In this document: piece after piece, positions 19,388 through 53,757 of the stretch
Position numbering within the stretch: position 1 is the stretch's first letter
Layout: each line of letters starts with the position of its first letter
Source: Eledone cirrhosa
Taxonomy: Eukaryota
Assembly (NCBI GenBank): GCA_964016885.1
Contig: OZ024742.1
Span: 9,920,001-9,984,000, forward strand
Reading direction: 5' to 3'
DNA length: 64,000 nucleotides
Program-made: the position numbers and the translations under genes
Notes under the pieces: generated by a model
The model's input: the letters and a program-made list of their open reading frames with translations, nothing else
Database searches by the model: none
Told to the model about the DNA's origin: nothing

Positions 19388-19470
<83 letters not shown>

Positions 19471-19477
<7 letters not shown>

Positions 19478-19611
19478 TAACAGATTAAAGTTTAAGCAAA
19501 TAATCGCTGCTTTCACCCTTAACGGGATCTGTGATTCTTATACATTTAATATATATTTATCCTTATCGAGCCCTCTTTGGATTTTAGTCTTCACATTTAT
19601 TATTATTACTA
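19471..19611. mobile_element. Rearranged pLTR fragment of mini-PLE family B (see 52493-53185), in (TA)n
   Basis: ATTAAAATAACAGATTAAAGTTTAAGCAAA...GGGATCT is joined to an oppositely oriented TTATCCTTATCGAGCCCTCTTTGGATTTTAGTC piece. Both parts match 52.8-53.2 kb. Confidence 0.8.
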
Positions 19612-19943
19612 TATATATATATATATATAAATGGAAGTACAGCATAGTCGAAGCTCGAGCCGCAGCCAAGCCAACGAATGCTTTCAGCAGTGCAACCAAG
19701 CACTCGACAAGTTATAGACCTCAGAGTAATAACATACAGTTTAAAGGGCTTTGTAAATGGAAGACAGCGACCGGTAATTCAGCCGGGGTCCGTAGCAACG
19801 AAAGAGGTGATTCGTGAGAAAAAATATATACATATATATATATATATATATGCAGAGGTTATATTTAATTTGTTGGGATTCAACAAGCTTAAACATTTTT
19901 ATAACTGATATAAAGCACTCAACAAGTTAGTGGAGTAAATATA

Positions 19944-20879: not shown

Positions 20880-21079
20880 NNNNNNNNNNNNNNNNNNNNN
20901 NNNNNNNNNNNNNNNNNNNNNNNNNNNNNNNNNNNNNNNNNNNNNNNNNNNNNNNNNNNNNNNNNNNNNNNNNNNNNNNNNNNNNNNNNNNNNNNNNNNN
21001 NNNNNNNNNNNNNNNNNNNNNNNNNNNNNNNNNNNNNNNNNNNNNNNNNNNNNNNNNNNNNNNNNNNNNNNNNNNNNNN
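20880..21079. other. Assembly gap (200 N)
   Basis: N run next to a (TA)n tract. Confidence 0.99.
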
Positions 21080-36934: not shown

Positions 36935-38387
36935 CGGGATAACAAGTTATCGTTATAGGCAATCCACTTAGAGGTAGTCCAGTTAGAGTACTCCGTGTTG
37001 TGGATGGTATTAACGTATGGCTTAGTTTGTCTCAACAAGACGCTTCCATAGTGATGCAGCGAGTTCGCGGTTATTTCTATGTAGGTTATATTTGGAGTAA
37101 TAATAATTCAAGAAATAAGAGTAACATGTTGTCTGTACAATAAGGACTTTATTCACAGTGCTGACAATTGTTTCTTTGATCTGGTAGGTCTAGAGCTCGC
37201 TAATCGCTTGATGTTGCGTCAATCGATCTCCACTACTTTGTTATAACCAGTCAATTTATTAGAGCGTGCGGATGTGAGGAAAATACGCAAGGCATGGCTT
37301 TTATAGAGGAGTGGTATTAGACCAGAACAGTAATATCAATAACAAAATAACTAGATACTGAATAGTTAAAATAATAACATCAATATGAATAAGAAATAGA
37401 ATATAATGATAAAACTAGCATGGTAAACGAACTGATGATACAGATGTATGAAATTGACATGTGAGGACTACTATAGGGTATATTATATGTAGTATTTGAG
37501 GGATGAAGAGATAACTAATAAAATGTACTCAGATTAAAATTTTGGAATCTACACTTTAAGTGCAATTATGAGGGATCTAGATACAAGTGTGGTGTGGGTC
37601 TAAAAGCACACTAGCAATAAACCGGAGATTGATTTATAGTTTGACAGTATTTTCGTTGTATCAACTTAGTGAAATTGATAGAGTGAGTGTATAAAGATAT
37701 GTGGTTCTTAGGTGATATTAAGTGAAATTGTAGATTTTAAGGTTTAGGTGGCTTATTCTAAATGTTGGGACTGCTAGTTCGAATCATGGGGTTTAGTTTT
37801 CACAACATCAATAACAAATAGCGTATAATTAAGACAATAACATCAACAATAAAATATGCATAGTAAATAGATAGAGAACATGATGAATAAAATTAGGGAT
37901 AGGGTACATTGAGATGATCATAATAATAATAAGAAAATAAGAGTTTCAAGGGGTTTAAGAGTAATAACTTAGAATTAAGTTCATCTGTTAGAGATCATGG
38001 GTGCTAATATGAGATATGTAGATATAATTGTTTGGTTCGAAAGAATAAACAACAGCAAAGACGAGATTGATTTATGGGCTGACAAGATAATTGGTAAATC
38101 TTTGTAGACATTGCTGTCCTATCTTGGTGGTATAGATGTAGGGAGGCTGCAAGGTGTTTATTGAAGATTATGGTTGTGTGAGAATGCGGATTTCATACGT
38201 TAAATTCTAAGTGATTTTCCATTAATTTTGGGGATGCTGTTTCGAATCACGGTGGTTTAAATCCCGTAAATTTAGTAGCAATACTATGTCTACAGAAAAT
38301 TGACTTTTTTATTTTGCTGATATGTAGGAATTCAAGGTTGCAGAGCCCGCAATGGGACATACCGCTGCTATAGGTCTTTGCGGCCGC
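36935..38387 (-). mobile_element. 5'-truncated Penelope-like element (second family) inserted between (TA)n tracts
   Basis: 38387-38247 translates to AAAKTYSSGMSHCGLCNLEFLHISKIKKSIFCRHSIATKFTGFKPP*, matching the C-terminus of the 41549 ORF (CKLCNLE..LFCRH..F..YKP). It is followed by a long 3' UTR with a decayed hammerhead (CTAATAA..GAAACAATTGTC, about 37150-37265). Confidence 0.8.
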
Positions 38388-38624
38388 TATATATATATAT
38401 ATATTTTTCTCATCCGTCTATTTTTCACTCCCAACCTAGTACCTTCAATATGCCCAATCTCAAATCTTTTCTCCGTCAGCTCCATTCTACTCCCAAGCGC
38501 TTCCTCCATTCTCCCACCCCTATGTGCATCCAATCCCCCACAGTTTTGCAAGAGATGTCAACATGAATGGACCTGTTATTTTTTATCTAAAAACATTTTT
38601 TCCACTTCCAACCCACCCGTCCCC

Positions 38625-39380: not shown

Positions 39381-40524
39381 ATGTATGTATGTATACGTCT
39401 ACATCTCTCTCTCTCTCTCAATATATATATGTATATACATCTCGACGCAATAACGCCACCAGAATATTGTCTATTTGGTTAAATCAGTTGATTACAGTGA
39501 AACTTTCATTAAAAGTAAATTCGTGAGTTATCTAATTGTTATGATAATCGTGACTAAAATATGTTATCAACTACATAAGAAACTCTTAATGAGCTTACGT
39601 TTGCGTCACACACAAAATTATACATATAGATTTCAGTTTTATCACAAATATTTCGGCTTCTTTATTAATCTTTTATGTATTTTTAGTTGTTTTATTATCT
39701 CTATTTGCAAAGTTGTTTGAAAGAGAAGCCTCGTATGTGAACGTAAGTCACTTTTACAAGATTGTTTATGTTGTGAGAAATGAGAAATATTTTCCGAGAA
39801 ATTACAGGCATTCTTGTAACATTTTTTTAAGGCGTTTCAAAGTTGTTTCTGTGAAACCCAGGTCTTCCCTTTCTTATCATCTCAAATAATTCACCCTTAG
39901 TTTCCTGTCTTAAAATCATATCTATGGAGACTGGAAGCAAGGGTCAAGAGTCGATGTCAAAGAATTAAGATATACAATGTTTTGTATTTATCACACTTTC
40001 TACATATTCTATTAACAGCTTTGAATTAGCAAGTCTTTGAGAAATAGAAATATTCTTTAGTAAATATGACATTGGATACTTGTAGACACATTAAGTAGTT
40101 ACACGAATTAAGTAGCCCGACTAATGTAGATATATATCATTATCTTCATCATTTGACGTCTGGTCTTTTCCCTCACACAATCGCCCCCCCTCCCACACAC
40201 ACAGCCATAGATATATTTGATATATATTTATCCTTATTGAGCCCTCTTTGGATTTTAGTCTTCGTATTTATTATTATTACTATATGTATATATATATATA
40301 AGTATTTCAGAGGGTGGTTAGGAATAATTGACCTCCTTGAGGGGAACAATCTGTTGAACTTCAACTGTCATGGATTCCATGATGGTAGGGCCTACCTGAC
40401 ATAGTTTCTACAACCTTTTGAGGACATCAGAAAATGTTTGGGAGATGGCATTAACCCTGGTCTTATTTCAATCTATGTCTCCTCTCGCTGTATGTCTAAG
40501 TCTAAAGTCTGTTTTAAACCAGAA

Positions 40525-40842: not shown

Positions 40843-40847
<5 letters not shown>

Positions 40848-41384
40848 TGTGTATATATATGTAAGTATGAATATGTGAATTGTGAGTATATGTATTTTGT
40901 AGAGGTGTGCAAATATATTTGTGTGTGAATGCGTGGGTGAAAGGATACGTACACTTGAAAGAAAAATTTAAGTCTGAATGTTAATTAAGTGCAAACACAA
41001 AACCAACCACGCATATCTTTACTATCTCTAATCCTTCTATAGATTTAGAAAAATAACCAATAATATATTCTATAAAAAATGTCAAAACAACAGATGGGAA
41101 TCTAATTACTCACTGCCACCAAGAATTCTCACTGCTATCGAAAAACCACTCCTTCAAATATTCTTCTAACAACTTCACCCCTCCCTCCTAATATTCTCTA
41201 TAAAAACTAAATAGGTCCTCAGTAATATTATTCTGATGAAATGACAGTAAATAATAACATTGAAATATTGAATGTCTGCATAACTAAAAGTTTGTAGATA
41301 GCTGTTTTAGGTTATGTAACTGTTATAGAAACACGTGTCAATAAATTCCTTTCAACTAAACTGTATCCATTCAAATCTTTCTAT
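40843..41384 (+). repeat. 5' pseudo-LTR (542 bp)
   Basis: Matches 44428-44969 at offset 3585; one substitution noticed by eye (caaatattc vs caactattc). Confidence 0.95.
41228..41344 (+). ncRNA. Type I hammerhead ribozyme with extended branched stem II (5' pLTR)
   Basis: ttatt-CTGATGA-a-atgacagt...actgttat-a-GAAAC-acgt-GTC-aataa. Palindromic stem III ACACGTGT; predicted cleavage after C41339. Confidence 0.8.
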
Positions 41385-41548
41385 TTTTCTCCGGATTACT
41401 TTTGGAACTACAACTGGAACCGTCGAGCAAACTCTACGTGAGCTGATAATCTACTGTGTGTAATATTTATATTACAACACAACGGAAAATACTGTATATT
41501 TACCTCCTGTAAAGTCGAGCAACCCACACAGCAAACGCAACCACAACA

Positions 41549-43870
41549 ATGGAAAAACACTACCTGGATATGTCACTCAAAAACATACCAACCCAAGGTA
41601 GAAAGGAATATTTATTGAGCATGATTCAAAAAACTAATGAATTCATTCGACGTGTCAGGTGGAAAACGCTCCACTATGATAGAAGCCGTATGAACTCAAC
41701 ATTAGAAAGTGGTGTAAACAACAAATTCGGTTTTAGGACTTGTAAAAACCCACCCACCAACCCACTATTAGATGCATTTGAGCAGGACCTTATGAACTTA
41801 ATCCTTAAAATTAAATTCAAAGGACGCAACACCAACAGCAAATTACAGAAAGATATAAAAAAACTACTGGACGACCTTAAAAACACCAAAGGAATTGTAG
41901 TAAAAGCGGACAAAACATCAAACCTGTACACTATGGATTGCACTACATACAACAACTTCATTCGAAAAGAATTACATAAAAAATATAGAAAAACCAGTGA
42001 AGTAACCCTTAAGCACATCAATGATGAGGCATGCGAAATAGTGAAAAATCTCGGAATCGAAGATAGGACAGGACCACTCTTACCGGCGGTACCCACCTTC
42101 AATCTTAAGGACCACAAGGTAAACTTTGATAATGACCCTAAAATTAGATTAATCTGCCCCTCTAAATCAGATATAGGTAAAATAAGCAAATATATCTTAG
42201 ATAGAATCATCCCCCAAATTAAGGCTAAGGTTAACATTAAACTCTGGGGGAAGACCCAAGAAGCAATAAGATGGTTTAATAGCATTAGCAATAAGAATAA
42301 ATCTAAGTTTATCCAGTTTGATATCGATGAATATTACTCATCGATATCACCTGAAACTTTGAATAGAGCCATTAAGTTTGCTAAGGATAACTCTGACCTT
42401 ACAAACGATGAAATTAAGATTATATTAGAAGCTAGGAAAACTATAGTCAAATTTGAGAACAGTTATTGGGTACGTAAAGATAGACCCTCTAACTTTGACA
42501 TAACAATGGGCTCTAACGATTCGGCGGAAATAACTGATATTGTGGGGTTATTTATCGCCTTTAGACTCCAGGAAAAATTCAGCAATCTCCACGGCGGAAT
42601 ATACCGCGACGATGTTCTCCTCCTAGCTAAAAACCTTAATAACCAAAAACTAGAAAAACTACGCAAAGATATAAGAAAACTACTACTCGAAATAGGACTA
42701 ACTATAACATATGAATACAACCTTAAAGTAGTTAACTTCCTGGATGTCACACTCAATTTAAACTCTGGTTTGATTAAACCGTTTCATAAATTGAATGAAA
42801 ATCTCAAATACGTAAATGTTGGGTCTAACCACCCCATCTCTATAATTAAATCTATCCCTAAAAATATTTCCCTTAGAATCTCGGGTCTATCTTCTAACAT
42901 ACAAGTATTTAAGGAACACGCCGAGTACTACGATAACGCCCTTAGTAAAGCAGGCTACCTCAACAAAATAGAGTACATAGATGGGAACAATCAAAACACC
43001 CAAAATAAATCCCACATAGGTAGATATAATAACACAACACCAAACCACACTTACTACCATAGTATGCACACCAGTAAACCAACAAACAAAACTAATAGAA
43101 AGCGATGCAAAGAGTACTTATGGTATAACCCCGAATACAATAGCTCCATTAGTACAAATTTACCAGTAATCTTCTTTAAAATAATTAAAAGACATTTTCC
43201 CACATCACACAAATACCACAAAATCCTAAACCCTACCACTATAAGACTGTCATACTCTACAGCGTTAAACCTTGAACAACACATAAAAAAGATCAATACT
43301 AGAAGGTTAAACGAAAACACTAAGAACTTAAGTACAAAGAACACAAACAAATCAGTAGACAATACACTACAGAACATAAATAAACCAGACCTAAGTTCGT
43401 CCGCAATACTACTCCAGAGAAAACCCAACGTACACAACTGTAACTGCACCTATCCTGACAACTGCCCCCTCGGCAATAACTGCCTGGAAAAAAATATTAT
43501 TTATAAGTGTACCATTAAATCCGGAGGCAACGAGTGGTATTACGTGGGATCAACGGCAACATCGTTTAAATCTCGATTGTATAGGCATTCTTACTCAATA
43601 AAACACCAGAGCCAAAGAAATGTAACAACTTTAGCAGAAAAAGCTTGGACGCTCAGGGATAGCAATCAAAAGTTTACCCTAAAATGGGAAAAATTAGCTA
43701 AAACCCAAAGCTTTTCCAGGAGCCAAAATTTCTGCAAATTGTGTAATCTTGAGATTTATTACATAATCACACACAAGAAGAAACTGCTGAATAACAGAAT
43801 TGAACGAACATTATTCTGCCGTCACAGAACTAAAACCCTTTTTTCCCACTACAAGCCGAATATTACATAA
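41549..43870 (+). CDS. PLE polyprotein: reverse transcriptase plus C-terminal GIY-YIG endonuclease (773 aa)
   Basis: PLE-type motifs: VVKADKT, KDHK..PKIRLI, FIQFDIDEYYSSI, FDITMGS, IYRDD, VNFLDVTL, SNHP..IIKSI. Linker CNCTYPDNC. Endonuclease IIYKC..YYVGST..FKSR..H, KW, CKLCNLE, CRH. No stops or frameshifts. Confidence 0.95.
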   Translation: MEKHYLDMSLKNIPTQGRKEYLLSMIQKTNEFIRRVRWKTLHYDRSRMNSTLESGVNNKFGFRTCKNPPTNPLLDAFEQDLMNLILKIKFKGRNTNSKLQKDIKKLLDDLKNTKGIVVKADKTSNLYTMDCTTYNNFIRKELHKKYRKTSEVTLKHINDEACEIVKNLGIEDRTGPLLPAVPTFNLKDHKVNFDNDPKIRLICPSKSDIGKISKYILDRIIPQIKAKVNIKLWGKTQEAIRWFNSISNKNKSKFIQFDIDEYYSSISPETLNRAIKFAKDNSDLTNDEIKIILEARKTIVKFENSYWVRKDRPSNFDITMGSNDSAEITDIVGLFIAFRLQEKFSNLHGGIYRDDVLLLAKNLNNQKLEKLRKDIRKLLLEIGLTITYEYNLKVVNFLDVTLNLNSGLIKPFHKLNENLKYVNVGSNHPISIIKSIPKNISLRISGLSSNIQVFKEHAEYYDNALSKAGYLNKIEYIDGNNQNTQNKSHIGRYNNTTPNHTYYHSMHTSKPTNKTNRKRCKEYLWYNPEYNSSISTNLPVIFFKIIKRHFPTSHKYHKILNPTTIRLSYSTALNLEQHIKKINTRRLNENTKNLSTKNTNKSVDNTLQNINKPDLSSSAILLQRKPNVHNCNCTYPDNCPLGNNCLEKNIIYKCTIKSGGNEWYYVGSTATSFKSRLYRHSYSIKHQSQRNVTTLAEKAWTLRDSNQKFTLKWEKLAKTQSFSRSQNFCKLCNLEIYYIITHKKKLLNNRIERTLFCRHRTKTLFSHYKPNIT

Positions 43871-44139
43871 AAGAGGGACATCCCCCAACTATATAAACCT
43901 TAATCTAGTTAGAAAAATATAAAAACAATCTCTTCTCAACATATATTAATAACCTTAAATTACCATACTAATAATGAAAAGATATGCTGATGAGAATAGG
44001 TACAAATATGCGATAATGAATGTGTCTAAAAACGTCCATAAGTATGTATATATATGTGAAAATGTATATAAATAAGTAAATATATATATATGTTTGATGT
44101 GTATAGTTAGATGTAAGTGTATTCATGTATTAAAGTGCT

Positions 44140-44427: not shown

Positions 44428-44969
44428 ATGCATGTGTATATATATGTAAGTATGAATATGTGAATTGTGAGTATATGTATTTTGTAGAGGTGTGCAAATA
44501 TATTTGTGTGTGAATGCGTGGGTGAAAGGATACGTACACTTGAAAGAAAAATTTAAGTCTGAATGTTAATTAAGTGCAAACACAAAACCAACCACGCATA
44601 TCTTTACTATCTCTAATCCTTCTATAGATTTAGAAAAATAACCAATAATATATTCTATAAAAAATGTCAAAACAACAGATGGGAATCTAATTACTCACTG
44701 CCACCAAGAATTCTCACTGCTATCGAAAAACCACTCCTTCAACTATTCTTCTAACAACTTCACCCCTCCCTCCTAATATTCTCTATAAAAACTAAATAGG
44801 TCCTCAGTAATATTATTCTGATGAAATGACAGTAAATAATAACATTGAAATATTGAATGTCTGCATAACTAAAAGTTTGTAGATAGCTGTTTTAGGTTAT
44901 GTAACTGTTATAGAAACACGTGTCAATAAATTCCTTTCAACTAAACTGTATCCATTCAAATCTTTCTAT
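44428..44969 (+). repeat. 3' pseudo-LTR (542 bp)
   Basis: Direct repeat of 40843-41384; ends at TCTTTCTA/(TA)n. Confidence 0.95.
44813..44929 (+). ncRNA. Type I hammerhead ribozyme (3' pLTR copy)
   Basis: Identical to 41228-41344; predicted cleavage after 44924. Confidence 0.8.
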
Positions 44970-49844: not shown

Positions 49845-50081
49845 ACGTGTGGAAGTGTGTATGTTAGTACGTGTGGAAGTGTGTGTGTTAGTACGTGTGG
49901 AAGTATGTATGTTCGTACGTGTGGAGGTGTGTGTTGCAATTAATGCAATTAAATTCTAGAATTTTTATGAGTGAACGAAGCTATCTAGTTCTTTCTGATC
50001 AATCTTAATGCAAGAAATGTGTTTACACACAAACACACATAAAATGCATTAAAATTGATCAGAAAGAAGTAGATAGCTTCG

Positions 50082-50125
<44 letters not shown>

Positions 50126-50593
50126 GGGTTTTAAACACCAATATCATGCTAAAATTTCTTTAGTCAAATATATGTCGAAATGCTTATATTCCCTATTCAA
50201 ACTTCGCTCGATGTTTCAAAACAAATCTAAGTACATTGTAACGTGAACTGGCGCGAAATTTATTATACTTATTCACGTGACAGTCATCAACCAACCAAGT
50301 TACTTTTCTAAAATACCTAGCATTTCGAGCCACTTTTTTTAACATAAAACAGAAGTAACATTCGAACACCAAGCAGATTGCGAGGACAACCACAAACCCT
50401 CCATCTCAATTCTACTTTTGAAAAGCAGAAGAACTGTGAAACCACTAAAGGAAACAAATAAATATTCTTAAAAACACTCCAATTGCATTTTCGATTTCAT
50501 CTGTTTTCCTTATACTTTCACTCGTGTAGGACACCTCGGTTATTTTTCATTTTGTAAAAAACAGTCACTTTCTATATATATATATATATATAT

Positions 50594-50648
<55 letters not shown>

Positions 50649-50919
50649 TTGTCCTCGCAATCTGCTTGGTGTTCGAATGTTACTTCTGTTTTATGTTAAA
50701 AAAAGTGGCTCGAAATGCTAGGTATTTTAGAAAAGTAACTTGGTTGGTTGATGACTGTCACGTGAATAAGTATAATAAATTTCGCGCCAGTTCACGTTAC
50801 AATGTACTTAGATTTGTTTTGAAACATCGAGCGAAGTTTGAATAGGGAATATAAGCATTTCGACATATATTTGACTAAAGAAATTTTAGCATGATATTGG
50901 TGTTTAAAACCCTCTATGT

Positions 50920-50956
<37 letters not shown>

Positions 50957-51193
50957 CGAAGCTATCTACTTCTTTCTGATCAATCTTAATGCATTTTATG
51001 TGTGTTTGTGTGTAAACACATTTCTTGCATTAAGATTGATCAGAAAGAAGTAGATAGCTTCGTTCACTCATAAAAATTCTAGAATTTAATTGCATTAATT
51101 GCAACACACACCTCCACACGTACGAACATACATACTTCCACACGTACTAACACACACACTTCCACACGTACTAACATACACACTTCCACACGT
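49845..51193. repeat. Large inverted duplication (arms of about 550 bp: 49845-50392 and 50646-51193)
   Basis: Mirror ORFs 50193-50393(-) and 50645-50845(+) are identical. The right arm starts at a (TA)n tract. Each arm also contains nested inverted repeats and a 23-bp tandem. Confidence 0.92.
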
Positions 51194-51633: not shown

Positions 51634-51856
51634 ATGAATGTATGTATAGTATATTTGGCGATATACCGTATGTTTGATTAAAAACATTTAGAAGACCATA
51701 CGCTATCGGTTTTAAATTAGTGACTATGTCACTTACTTCTTTTCGGAAAAGAAGTAAGTGACATAGTCACTACTTTAAAACCGAGAGCGTATGGTCTTCA
51801 AAATCTTTTTAATCAAACATACGGTATATCGCCAAATATACTATACATACATTCAT
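51634..51856. repeat. About 220-bp palindrome, 1-nt spacer, abutting (TA)n
   Basis: ...CACTTACTTCTTTTC-G-GAAAAGAAGTAAGTG...; arms at 51634-51744 and 51746-51856. Confidence 0.92.
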
Positions 51857-51874
51857 ATATATATATATATATAT

Positions 51875-52085
51875 AGTAATAATAATAAATGTGAAGACTA
51901 AAATCCAAAGAGGGCTCGATAACGATAAATATATATAAAATATATAAGAACCCTAGAGCAAATATTTATTAAAATAACAGATTAAAGTTTAAGCAAAGAA
52001 TCGCTACTTTCACCTTTAACGGGATCTTCTGTAACTAAAAACAATCAATCTGTGGACGCAGAAGTAATTATTTCGAAAAACGTCT
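51875..52085 (-). mobile_element. Diverged pLTR copy of mini-PLE family B
   Basis: Homologous to 52793-53000, including the variant hammerhead at 51986-52036. Confidence 0.8.
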
Positions 52086-52449
52086 TCTAAATTTTGAAAA
52101 AAATAAAAATGACTTTAGTCAATGGTTAATATGTTCTTTCTTAAACAGAACAATTATATATCGTTATACTTTAAAAGGTCGGTACGTAAACTATATTATC
52201 TATATCTTGTATAAGATTAAACGTATAGAAATGTTCAACCTGTCTTCCACAATACAATATCAACAATTTGAACCTAGAATTTCAGATAACATCACTTGCC
52301 ATAGACAGAATGTATAGATCCGGTGACCGACCTACCTATAATTTAAATAAGCTATAGGGCCACAAACACTCGAAGCCTTATCTTTTAAAATATAATTTTA
52401 TTTTAGAATTAGTTTAGCTCATGTTTTACTTTTTAACACTAAATAATCA

Positions 52450-52492
<43 letters not shown>

Positions 52493-52497
<5 letters not shown>

Positions 52498-53185
52498 TAA
52501 AATAACAGATTAAAGTTTAAGGAAAGAATCGCTGCTTTCACCCTTAACGGGATCTTCTGAAACTAACAAAGTCAATCTGTAAACGCAGAACTGGATATTT
52601 CAAAAAACGTTGCAACCGGAGGAAGACAGGAAGACGATACTTTGGTTCGTGGAAACGTTCGCCTGTTTTCTGTATCAGGAGTTTTAGGTATGTTTTCCTG
52701 CTTGGTACGGGTATGTTCTTTGTAGAAATATTCAGATGTTGTTTCTGCATGATCAATATAAGTCAGTAGAGTGCTCAACCGAGGGAGCCAAATAGTAATA
52801 ATAATAAATTTGAAGACTAAAATCCAAAGAGGGCTCGATAAGGATAAATATATATCAAATATATAAGAACCGTAGAGCAAATATTTATTAAAATAACAGA
52901 TTAAAGTTTAAGCAAAGAATCGCTGCTTTCACCCTTAACGGGATTTTCTGAAACTAACAAAGTCAATCTGTAAACGCAGAACTGGATATTTCAAAAAACG
53001 TTGCAACCGGAGGAAGACAGGAAGACGAGAAGATCCCGTTAAGGGTGAAAGCAGCGATTCTTTGCTTAAACTTTAATCTGTTATTTTAATAAATATTTGC
53101 TCTACGGTTCTTATATATTTGATATATATTTATCCTTATCGAGCCCTCTTTGGATTTTAGTCTTCAAATTTATTATTATTACTAT
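52493..53185 (-). mobile_element. Internally deleted mini-PLE (391-bp period) with tandem and inverted pLTRs, in (TA)n
   Basis: 52493-52637 repeats at +391. 52750-52658 encodes MQKQHLNISTKNIPVPSRKTYLKLLIQKTGE, homologous to the PLE N-terminus MEKHYLDMSLKNIPTQGRKEYLLSMIQKTNE. 53028-53185 is an inverted pLTR. Confidence 0.85.
52514..52564 (-). ncRNA. Variant hammerhead-like motif (CAGAAGA core, CUU site); copies at 52905-52955(-), 51986-52036(-) and 53028-53072(+, partial)
   Basis: Family consensus agttt-CAGAAGA-tccc-gttaa-gggt-GAA-agca-gcgattctt-tgct-T-aaact. Three stems in hammerhead topology with a non-canonical core. Confidence 0.55.
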
Positions 53186-53187
53186 TA

Positions 53188-53260
<73 letters not shown>

Positions 53261-53513
53261 CGTGTGTGCGTGCGTGTGTATGTGTGTGCGTGTGCGTGTG
53301 AGTGTGTGTGTGTGCGCGCGTGCGTATGTGTGTGTGTTAGGTAATTCCGAAGTAAAAGCAAAGGAAAAAGTGTGCTCTATGTATAGAACAGAGCTATTTC
53401 ATTAGAAAGTGAACAACACAAAACATGACTACTCCATTACCAAAGGTTTTTGGATACCAGACAATATTAATATACGTCTGGATCCATATATATATATACA
53501 TATATATACATAT

Positions 53514-53584
<71 letters not shown>

Positions 53585-53629
53585 TCGAGCCCTCTTTGGA
53601 TTTTAGTCTTCAAATTTATTATTATTACT

Positions 53630-53757
<128 letters not shown>

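What the first reader, a model, noticed from the sequence alone, without database searches (positions are those of the whole stretch)
52493..53185. 391-nt mini-PLE between two variant hammerheads: possibly a retrozyme arising from a Penelope element
Seen (minus strand): pLTR with a hammerhead-like fold, a short leader, ATG plus about 31 codons clearly homologous to the N-terminus of the 773-aa PLE protein, then an immediate jump into a second pLTR copy 391 bp on, plus an inverted pLTR at the 5' side. Pieces of the same pLTR recur at 19471, about 40215, 51875 and about 53585, always at TA tracts. Known: metazoan non-LTR retrozymes are short hammerhead-bearing tandem units that yield circular RNAs and are thought to be mobilised by PLEs. 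Inference: this is a non-autonomous unit made by internal deletion of a PLE. The retained ORF stub records its ancestry, and it could release a 391-nt monomer or circle.
Basis: partly seen in the sequence, partly recalled or inferred. Interest (0 to 1): 0.82.

Follow-up and report, generated by a model that had tools for sequence, protein, structure and literature searches.

The report
Internally deleted Penelope retrotransposon copy
This is a copy of a known kind of animal jumping gene that has lost its protein-coding middle; each of its two self-cutting-RNA motifs carries its own defect and its junction was not seen in the sequencing runs checked, so it is likely a dead one-off rather than a new circular-RNA parasite.

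Summary
The anatomy is real. On the minus strand lie an inverted arm (53029-53186), pLTR1, a 41-nt leader, an ORF start, a junction at 52662|52663 and a second pLTR 391 nt on, all inside TA tracts. The stub is 29 codons of an abundant Hydra-clade Penelope-like family; reads show the parent frame running on into the RW motif. It is not the window's 773-aa element. The retrozyme reading is poorly supported. Hammerhead 1 has G8A and hammerhead 2 a stem-III mismatch, both minority states in family reads. The circle folds no better than shuffles (z -0.04). At most 29 of about 204 ORF-side reads in one run, and none of 10 contigs in two other organisms, can span the junction. Two other contigs join 3' end to stub at different breakpoints. 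A small mobilised family is not excluded: no genome or RNA run was available. Internally deleted Penelope copies of this layout are published (PMC3846280). The odd feature is a family-wide U4A hammerhead core. The scan noted Penelope hammerheads and high-copy retrozyme families elsewhere in this genome, but no look-alike of this unit.

The parts
53029..53186 (+). Inverted, 5'-truncated arm: pLTR 3' part from the hammerhead core (G5, with one base shared with the sense arm) to the long outer end (site B). It has G8 and an intact stem III but lacks C3 and the 5' strand of stem I.
   Evidence: 1 difference in 158 nt against 52948-52791; alignment A1
52792..53028 (-). pLTR1 (upstream partial copy), 237 nt, ending at site B
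   Evidence: 436 reads in X23 have loose ends before 52791, and 77 contigs in X1 before 52792 with TA-rich consensus
52897..52970 (-). Hammerhead-like motif 1 (type I): core C3-A4-G5-A6-A7-A8-A9, U10.1.U11.1, CUU triplet, predicted cut 52910|52909. G8A at 52945 is a minority state in the family.
   Evidence: family reads carry G8 in 2473 of 2751 (X23) and 2603 of 2841 (X24)
52751..52791 (-). 41-nt leader between site B and the start codon
   Evidence: sequence; X1 contig 3 links pLTR end, leader and ORF start and runs on past 52665
52663..52750 (-). ORF stub: 29 codons plus one base of a Hydra-clade RT/endonuclease ORF
   Evidence: 134 reads (X23), 7 contigs (X1) and 1 contig (X4) leave before 52663 into letters that, read by hand, continue the frame as D-A-F-I-K-R-L-R-W
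52660..52665 (-). Junction of ORF stub to the element's 3' part. It reads either as a blunt join at 52662|52663 with one substitution, or as a 3-nt overlap (52663-52665) with one added base.
   Evidence: loose ends behind 52660/52662 and before 52663; chance of an overlap of 3 nt or more about 0.07
52493..52662 (-). 3' part of the element (170 nt) with pLTR2, ending at the short outer end (site A) in a TA tract
   Evidence: site A is a family-wide end: 1474 reads in X23 run into TA before the equivalent place 52881
52506..52579 (-). Hammerhead-like motif 2: core C3-A4-G5-A6-A7-G8-A9, predicted cut 52519|52518. C.C mismatch in stem III at 52522 is a minority state in the family.
   Evidence: family reads have the pairing base in 786 of 931 (X23) and 718 of 911 (X24)
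52519..52909 (-). The hypothetical 391-nt cut-to-cut monomer (36% G+C)
   Evidence: circular fold -62.9 kcal/mol vs shuffles -62.7 +/- 5.1; 49 of 100 shuffles fold as well
52456..52492 (.). TA tract at the right (3') flank, target of the insertion
   Evidence: sequence
53187..53206 (.). TA tract at the left flank, followed by (TG)n
   Evidence: sequence

Best explanation
This is a two-armed insertion of an abundant Hydra-clade Penelope-like retrotransposon in a TA tract, with the ORF start joined to the element's 3' end, and it is likely a dead one-off, most likely made when the reverse transcriptase jumped templates during insertion. Shown: the layout, the parent family, the breakpoint, and the two fixed outer ends (one arm ends at site A, the other at site B, 89 nt apart). 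Inferred: the element's enzyme nicked the TA tract and copied an uncut, pLTR-ORF-pLTR-type RNA. One arm started at site B and stopped after 158 nt (the inverted arm). The other started at site A, copied 170 nt, jumped to a point 88 nt into the ORF and ran on through leader and pLTR1. About 2 kb of ORF is inferred to be missing, from the size of relatives. A later repair deletion in a full-length copy gives the same sequence; I put the jump at 60% and repair at 40%. The G8A and stem-III changes likely arose at or after insertion, and are predicted to stop release of a 391-nt monomer from this locus.
For: Parent: N-terminal homology; reads and contigs continue the frame into the RW motif at 52663. 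Family 3' ends leave the window at 52660-52662: 846+254 of 1202 reads deep at 52654 in X23. Junction rare: bin arithmetic allows at most 29 spanning reads, against 204 reads deep on the ORF side in X23, and leaves no depth for one in X4 (9 contigs laid) or X6 (1 contig); none of the 8 listed X1 pieces bridges it. Two X1 contigs (depth 7.1 and 8.9) join the 3' part to the stub at other breakpoints (ORF side 52689), so such joins seem to recur independently (tables 5, 5c). Ribozyme defects; single G8 or C3 changes abolish cleavage (PMC11167929; PMC9901934). Layout and precedent: direct plus inverted pLTR, one-sided tail and an internal microhomology-mediated deletion in Adineta Pen2 (PMC3846280). 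Uncut RNA is the main template in vitro and reverse transcription starts at two internal sites (PMC11167929).
Against: The bounds are loose. X23 is a reduced-representation library that sees only copies near cut sites. Logan contigs drop rare forms, and a junction contig of about 60 nt would not be among the longest listed (8 of 1713 X1 pieces shown; 88 loose-end rows hidden). X1 depth alone allows spanning contigs up to about 29% of stub-side depth (12,579 at 52670 vs about 44,000 at 52695-52701). The unit keeps leader, ORF start and both end sites, so it could be mobilised in trans, and cleavage is not needed for insertion in vitro. A 391-nt circle copied for 1.37 rounds would give the same layout. 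The two other joins rest on 22 and 29 letters on their short side and share the same ORF-side point, so they might be one small family of their own.
Confidence: 0.68

Rival explanations
1. The unit belongs to a small non-autonomous mini-PLE family (tens of copies or fewer). The deletion arose once elsewhere, and the short RNA has since been copied in trans by the parent's enzyme, with or without a circular intermediate.
For: All cis parts are kept. Up to 29 reads in X23 could span the junction. pLTR sequences alone sufficed for insertion in trans in Adineta (PMC3846280). Non-autonomous PLE derivatives such as MRC1 are described (PMC8557442). The three pLTR pieces are nearly identical, as expected from one template.
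Against: No read or contig was shown to span the junction; none in organisms B and C, though B carries both the parent's ORF start (2 differences in 118 nt) and the 3' end. No look-alike among earlier findings, which is a weak test. Near-identity is equally expected of a normal young insertion.
Confidence: 0.22
2. The locus is a working non-LTR retrozyme: it is transcribed, both hammerheads cut, and a 391-nt monomer is released and closed into a circle.
For: Two hammerhead-like motifs in tandem, cut sites 391 nt apart, G+C 36%; the size lies within the 170-400 nt of metazoan retrozymes (PMC7229834). PLE hammerheads can need protein or a dimer to cut.
Against: G8A without a compensating U3 in HHR1; stem-III mismatch in HHR2; U4A in both; the hammerhead is not the lowest-energy fold; the circle is no more paired than shuffles. 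Only 1.37 units. In Xenopus 8 of 9 predicted retrozyme dimers with complete motifs did not cleave (preprint 10.64898/2026.07.22.740005).
Confidence: 0.05
3. The junction is an assembly error that collapsed a full-length copy.
For: No read or contig was shown to carry the junction, not even in runs of the best-matching organism. Tandem and inverted PLE structures trouble assemblers (PMC8557442).
Against: The join does not fall within a long repeat shared by both sides, as a collapse would need. The runs laid are probably other individuals and show only part of their records.
Confidence: 0.04

Closest known systems
Hydra clade of C-terminal EN+ Penelope-like elements (Craig et al. 2021, PMC8557442; section 11, passages and part 2 of the supplement read)
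   Same: N-terminus running into an RW motif; (TA)n target; partial tandem plus inverted 5'-truncated copy; type I hammerhead in the 3' repeat. U10.1.U11.1 occurs in 14 and cleavage after U in 10 of the 26 Hydra rows of File S2 (counted by hand).
   Different: This copy lacks nearly all of the ORF. All 26 listed Hydra hammerheads have CUGA and C15.2-G16.2 (they were found with a descriptor built on the canonical core); this family has CAGA and G15.2-C16.2. The tail here is 89 nt against the 30-40 bp described. The hammerhead is not that of Hydra-1_Obim.
Internally deleted Penelope copies of Adineta vaga, e.g. the Pen2 derivative on scaffold 304 (Arkhipova et al. 2013, PMC3846280; passages read)
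   Same: Direct and inverted pLTRs with a one-sided tail; a copy disabled by an internal deletion.
   Different: Different host and family; there the deletion is called microhomology-mediated and a target duplication is seen, here the overlap is ambiguous and the TA tract hides any duplication.
Metazoan non-LTR retrozymes (Cervera and de la Pena 2020, PMC7229834, part 2 of 6 and passages; Li, Clavereau and Pollet 2026, 10.64898/2026.07.22.740005, parts 1-3 of 5)
   Same: Unit size, low G+C, type I hammerhead in each repeat, descent from a PLE pLTR (already argued by Li et al. for 24 of 57 Xenopus families matching known elements, 21 of the 22 matches being PLEs).
   Different: No multi-copy or multimer evidence, both motifs defective, no stable circle fold, no RNA evidence. 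The retrozyme-PLE homology reported by Li et al. lies in the pLTRs; a retained ORF stub is not mentioned in the parts read.
Natural hammerhead core variants (Perreault et al. 2011, PMC3088659; section 8 and passages read, Figure 5 not seen)
   Same: U10.1.U11.1 is a known working variant; position 4 varies in nature (U4C in a viroid, weak in vitro but enough for infectivity).
   Different: U4A is not named in the text read (0 hits). A8 is described only together with U3.

Membership tests
Hydra-clade PLE (parent family) | N-terminal RWK-type motif after the conserved start | tested here: met
   Loose ends before 52663 read by hand as ...K-R-L-R-W, as in P0004 and P0001
Hydra-clade PLE (parent family) | DKT motif, RT core, CxCX5C linker, C-terminal GIY-YIG without CCHH | not testable with these tools
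   Deleted in this copy and the parent's full ORF was not retrieved. The relatives P0001 (RWK, DKT, YRDD, CxCX5C, GIY-YIG-like, CxxC, CxH) and P0004 (RWR, DKT, YRDD) show them.
Hydra-clade PLE (parent family) | Insertion into (TA)n | tested here: met
   All 7 outer ends printed run into TA; read loose ends at both end sites are TA-rich
Hydra-clade PLE (parent family) | Canonical hammerhead in the 3' repeat | tested here: inconclusive
   Type I fold with all stems present, but the core has A at position 4; no Rfam match
Penelope-like insertion layout | Partial tandem of pLTRs, inverted 5'-truncated arm, tail at one end only | tested here: met
Metazoan non-LTR retrozyme | Tandem units of about 150-450 nt, low G+C, no protein | tested here: inconclusive
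   Period 391 nt and 36% G+C fit, but there are only 1.37 units
Metazoan non-LTR retrozyme | Complete type I hammerhead in at least two consecutive units (criterion of Li et al. 2026) | tested here: not met
   HHR1 G8A, HHR2 stem-III mismatch, both U4A
Metazoan non-LTR retrozyme | Repeated family of the unit in the genome | tested here: inconclusive
   No spanning record shown; bound of at most 29 of 204 reads in X23, none in X4 or X6; no genome held
Metazoan non-LTR retrozyme | Highly self-paired circle | tested here: not met
   z -0.04 against 100 dinucleotide shuffles, 56% paired; no known retrozyme was folded as a positive control
Metazoan non-LTR retrozyme | Self-cleavage and monomeric linear and circular RNA | not testable with these tools
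   Needs bench work; no RNA run could be laid

The most novel reading that the evidence does not exclude
The unit is the founder or a member of a small trans-mobilised mini-PLE family, a retrozyme caught at birth with its parent's ORF start still attached, and the family-wide C3-A4-G5-A6 hammerhead is a natural U4A variant that still cuts, perhaps with help from the element's protein.
Probability: 0.12. Interest if true: 0.58.

Novelty: new member of a known kind. Interest (0 to 1): 0.22.

Why it matters
As a one-off dead copy it matters little: deleted Penelope copies and the descent of retrozymes from pLTRs are both in print. If the junction proved multi-copy and the RNA circular, it would show one concrete route from an autonomous element to a retrozyme, with the parent identifiable. 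The side finding is easier to test: an abundant family seems fixed for A at hammerhead position 4. Either that variant cuts, widening the known core, or a successful family moves without cleavage, which fits the in vitro result that cleavage is dispensable (PMC11167929).

Tried and rejected
Whole-genome junction count: no genome is held for this window, so copy number rests on read tables. RNA: no RNA holder listed; this is no evidence either way. Rfam: 0 matches at gathering level in the window; 7 matches at E up to 10 in 51800-53300, none a hammerhead. Search for the full-length parent with the 68-aa read-through P0002: 0 of 16 candidates scored. P0004 in metagenome contigs: 125 pattern matches, none confirmed. 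Junction pattern in metagenome contigs: 0 matches; that collection is unlikely to hold this animal, so it is no evidence. Pfam: no family for P0001 or P0002 at E 0.1. The 773-aa element as the parent: rejected, no DNA match. Naiad clade: rejected, the relatives have a C-terminal endonuclease and the RW and DKT motifs. An in-frame fusion to the ORF's C-terminus (H-E-P-K-Y-R-L resembles the C-R-H-x-x-K-x-x-L end of relatives): not supported, since the 30 family letters upstream, read by hand in three frames, do not resemble that end. Selection for inactivation, because both differences hit the hammerhead: chance is about 0.13, not significant. Twin end hairpins noted by earlier findings: a shared short sequence follows both end sites, but only site B folds (-4.6 kcal/mol) and neither beats shuffles. 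Literature on U4A: searches (0 papers), 53 and 57 and passages gave no U4A example. Lunse et al. on PLE hammerhead variants is not held and was not read, Figure 5 of Perreault et al. and the supplements of the Li preprint were not seen, and any of them may list it.

Full report
Observation. The minus strand reads, from 53186 down: an inverted arm, pLTR1 (53028-52792), a 41-nt leader, an ATG at 52750, an ORF stub, a junction and a 3' part ending in TA at 52493. 52881-53028 and 52490-52637 are 148-nt direct repeats with 2 differences, 391 nt apart. The inverted arm 53029-53186 matches 52948-52791 with 1 difference. The further pieces at 19465-19612, 40211-40286, 51873-52083 and about 53585-53631 are real, and all 7 outer ends printed run into TA.

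Parent. The stub matches the N-terminus of the window's 773-aa ORF at 17/31 and P0004 at 64.5% over 31 residues. The 773-aa protein has the Hydra-clade marks of Craig et al. 2021 (RWK, DKT, CxCX5C, C-terminal GIY-YIG-like motif, CxxC, CxH), and 299 relatives at E 1e-10 or better among 7996 candidates. It shares no DNA with the unit (best E 0.36), so it is a cousin. The parent shows in the runs. X1 contig 3 follows pLTR end, leader and ORF start and runs on for 177 letters past 52665. 134 reads in X23, 7 contigs in X1 and 1 in X4 leave the window before 52663, and their letters, read by hand, continue the frame as D-A-F-I-K-R-L-R-W. So 29 codons and one base are parent ORF. From the other side, 846 and 254 reads in X23 leave behind 52660 and 52662. 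The join reads as blunt with one substitution, or as a 3-nt overlap with one added base; an overlap of that length arises by chance about 7% of the time. An earlier AI note calls this genome an octopus; I did not test that.

Family. Twenty runs from 16 studies hold part of the stretch; I laid 6 of the 24 listed. Summed contig depth in X1 is about 1.0-1.4 million over pLTR bins and 26,000-71,000 over leader and stub. This is no copy number, but it suggests that bare ends far outnumber ORF starts. Copies end at two sites: A (52881 equivalent; 1474 reads into TA in X23) and B (52792; 436 reads), 89 nt apart. This insertion has one arm at each, as does the small two-armed insertion at 19465-19612. 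Frangieh et al. 2024 showed two internal reverse-transcription starts that bound the PLE tail. Earlier AI notes in this scan describe the same one-short, one-long end rule for other families.

Is the junction multiplied? No genome is held, so I used depth arithmetic. In X23 the bin 52660-52666 holds 2353 read-positions. The three listed loose-end classes account for 2144, leaving room for at most 29 spanning reads, against 1202 reads deep at 52654 and 204 at 52670. In X4 (organism B, 9 contigs) and X6 (organism C, 1 contig) the sums close with no spanning contig. In X1, 8 of 1713 pieces are listed and none bridges; depth gives only a loose ceiling of about 29% of the stub side. Limits: X23 is a reduced-representation library, contigs drop rare forms, 88 loose-end rows were hidden, and the arithmetic assumes loose ends sit exactly where listed. 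A dominant mini-family is unlikely; a small one is not excluded. The junction was also not confirmed for this locus itself. Two X1 contigs (depth 7.1 and 8.9) join the 3' part to the stub at 52689 instead, with 22 and 29 letters on the short side. They suggest that such joins recur at other breakpoints, but both share one ORF-side point and could be a small family of their own.

Ribozymes. A type I hammerhead can be drawn in both repeats, with cut sites 391 nt apart. It is not the lowest-energy fold and Rfam does not find it. The only two differences between the repeats are G8A in HHR1 and a C.C mismatch in stem III of HHR2. Family reads carry G8 in 2473 of 2751 and the pairing base in 786 of 931 (X23; similar in X24), and the inverted arm has both. 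Single changes at C3 or G8 abolish cleavage in a PLE hammerhead and single mutants of the CUGA region are weak in a deep scan; A8 is described as natural only with U3. The 391-nt circle folds at -62.9 kcal/mol against -62.7 +/- 5.1 for shuffles, whereas retrozyme circles are described as highly self-paired; I ran no positive control. Release of a monomer from this locus is therefore predicted not to occur.

The family-wide core. All three complete window copies read C-A-G-A at positions 3-6. In one search X1 lists one T>A place at 5% or more (52885) and X5 none, so U4 is below 5% among contigs laid at 88% likeness; for X23 and X24 not all T>A places were shown, and laying on an A4 reference favours A4. 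U10.1.U11.1 and cleavage after U are common in Hydra hammerheads (14 and 10 of 26 rows, counted by hand). All 26 have CUGA, but they were found with a canonical descriptor. I found U4C but not U4A in what I could read. The paper most likely to list it (Lunse et al.) is not held, and one figure and the preprint's supplements were not seen.

Mechanism. Shown: layout, parent, breakpoint, end sites, defects. Inferred: nicking of the TA tract and copying of uncut RNA from sites A and B, with a jump from 170 nt into the 3' part to 88 nt into the ORF (60%), or a later repair deletion (40%). Arkhipova et al. 2013 describe the same layout with an internal deletion and many copies disabled that way (passages). 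A circle copied for 1.37 rounds would look the same, and only junction counts can tell these apart.

Verdict. A new, probably dead copy of an undescribed Hydra-clade family (0.68); member of a small mobilised mini-family (0.22); working retrozyme (0.05); assembly error (0.04). That retrozymes derive from PLE pLTRs is already argued in print. Earlier AI notes report high-copy hammerhead repeat families elsewhere in this genome (unchecked), and no look-alike of this unit. Interest 0.22, mostly for the A4 core.

Noticed in passing
window 52949, 52558, 52030 (hammerhead position 4): The family seems fixed for A at hammerhead position 4, with a G15.2-C16.2 pair; neither is among the 26 Hydra hammerhead rows of Craig et al. 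Activity untested.
   Followed up: partly
run X1, joints to 52689: Two contigs join the family's 3' part to the ORF stub at other breakpoints (about 52639 and 52646 to 52689); possibly independent joins or a second small mini-element.
   Followed up: no
window 19465-19612: Small two-armed insertion of the same family in a TA tract: one arm ends at site A, the other at site B, and the two arms cover adjoining parts of the pLTR with a gap of about 11 nt.
   Followed up: partly
window 41549-43870 (+): Open 773-aa ORF with Hydra-clade PLE motifs, flanked by direct repeats of roughly 540 nt (about 40845-41385 and 44430-44969, read by eye); a decayed hammerhead-like stretch near 43985-44030 lies before the 3' repeat.
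   Followed up: partly
window 20355 (+), 25033 (+), 36609 (-), 20770 (-): Four further hammerhead-like motifs with a canonical CUGAUGA core, from other families; the first two look related.
   Followed up: no
window 38253-38390 (-): Remnant of a PLE C-terminus (33% over 55 aa to P0001).
   Followed up: no
window 52862-52880 and 52771-52791 (-): A similar short sequence follows both end sites A and B; only the one after B folds into a small hairpin, no better than shuffles.
   Followed up: partly
window 49845-50392 and 50646-51193: 548-nt inverted repeat, 99% complementary, around a TA-rich 253-nt spacer.
   Followed up: no
window about 51634-51856: Near-perfect fold-back of about 220 nt next to the 51873 copy, read by eye.
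   Followed up: no
window 54064 to about 60100, and 1 to about 12000: Tandem arrays with 41-nt and 27-nt periods.
   Followed up: no
window 20880-21079: A 200-base assembly gap.
   Followed up: no
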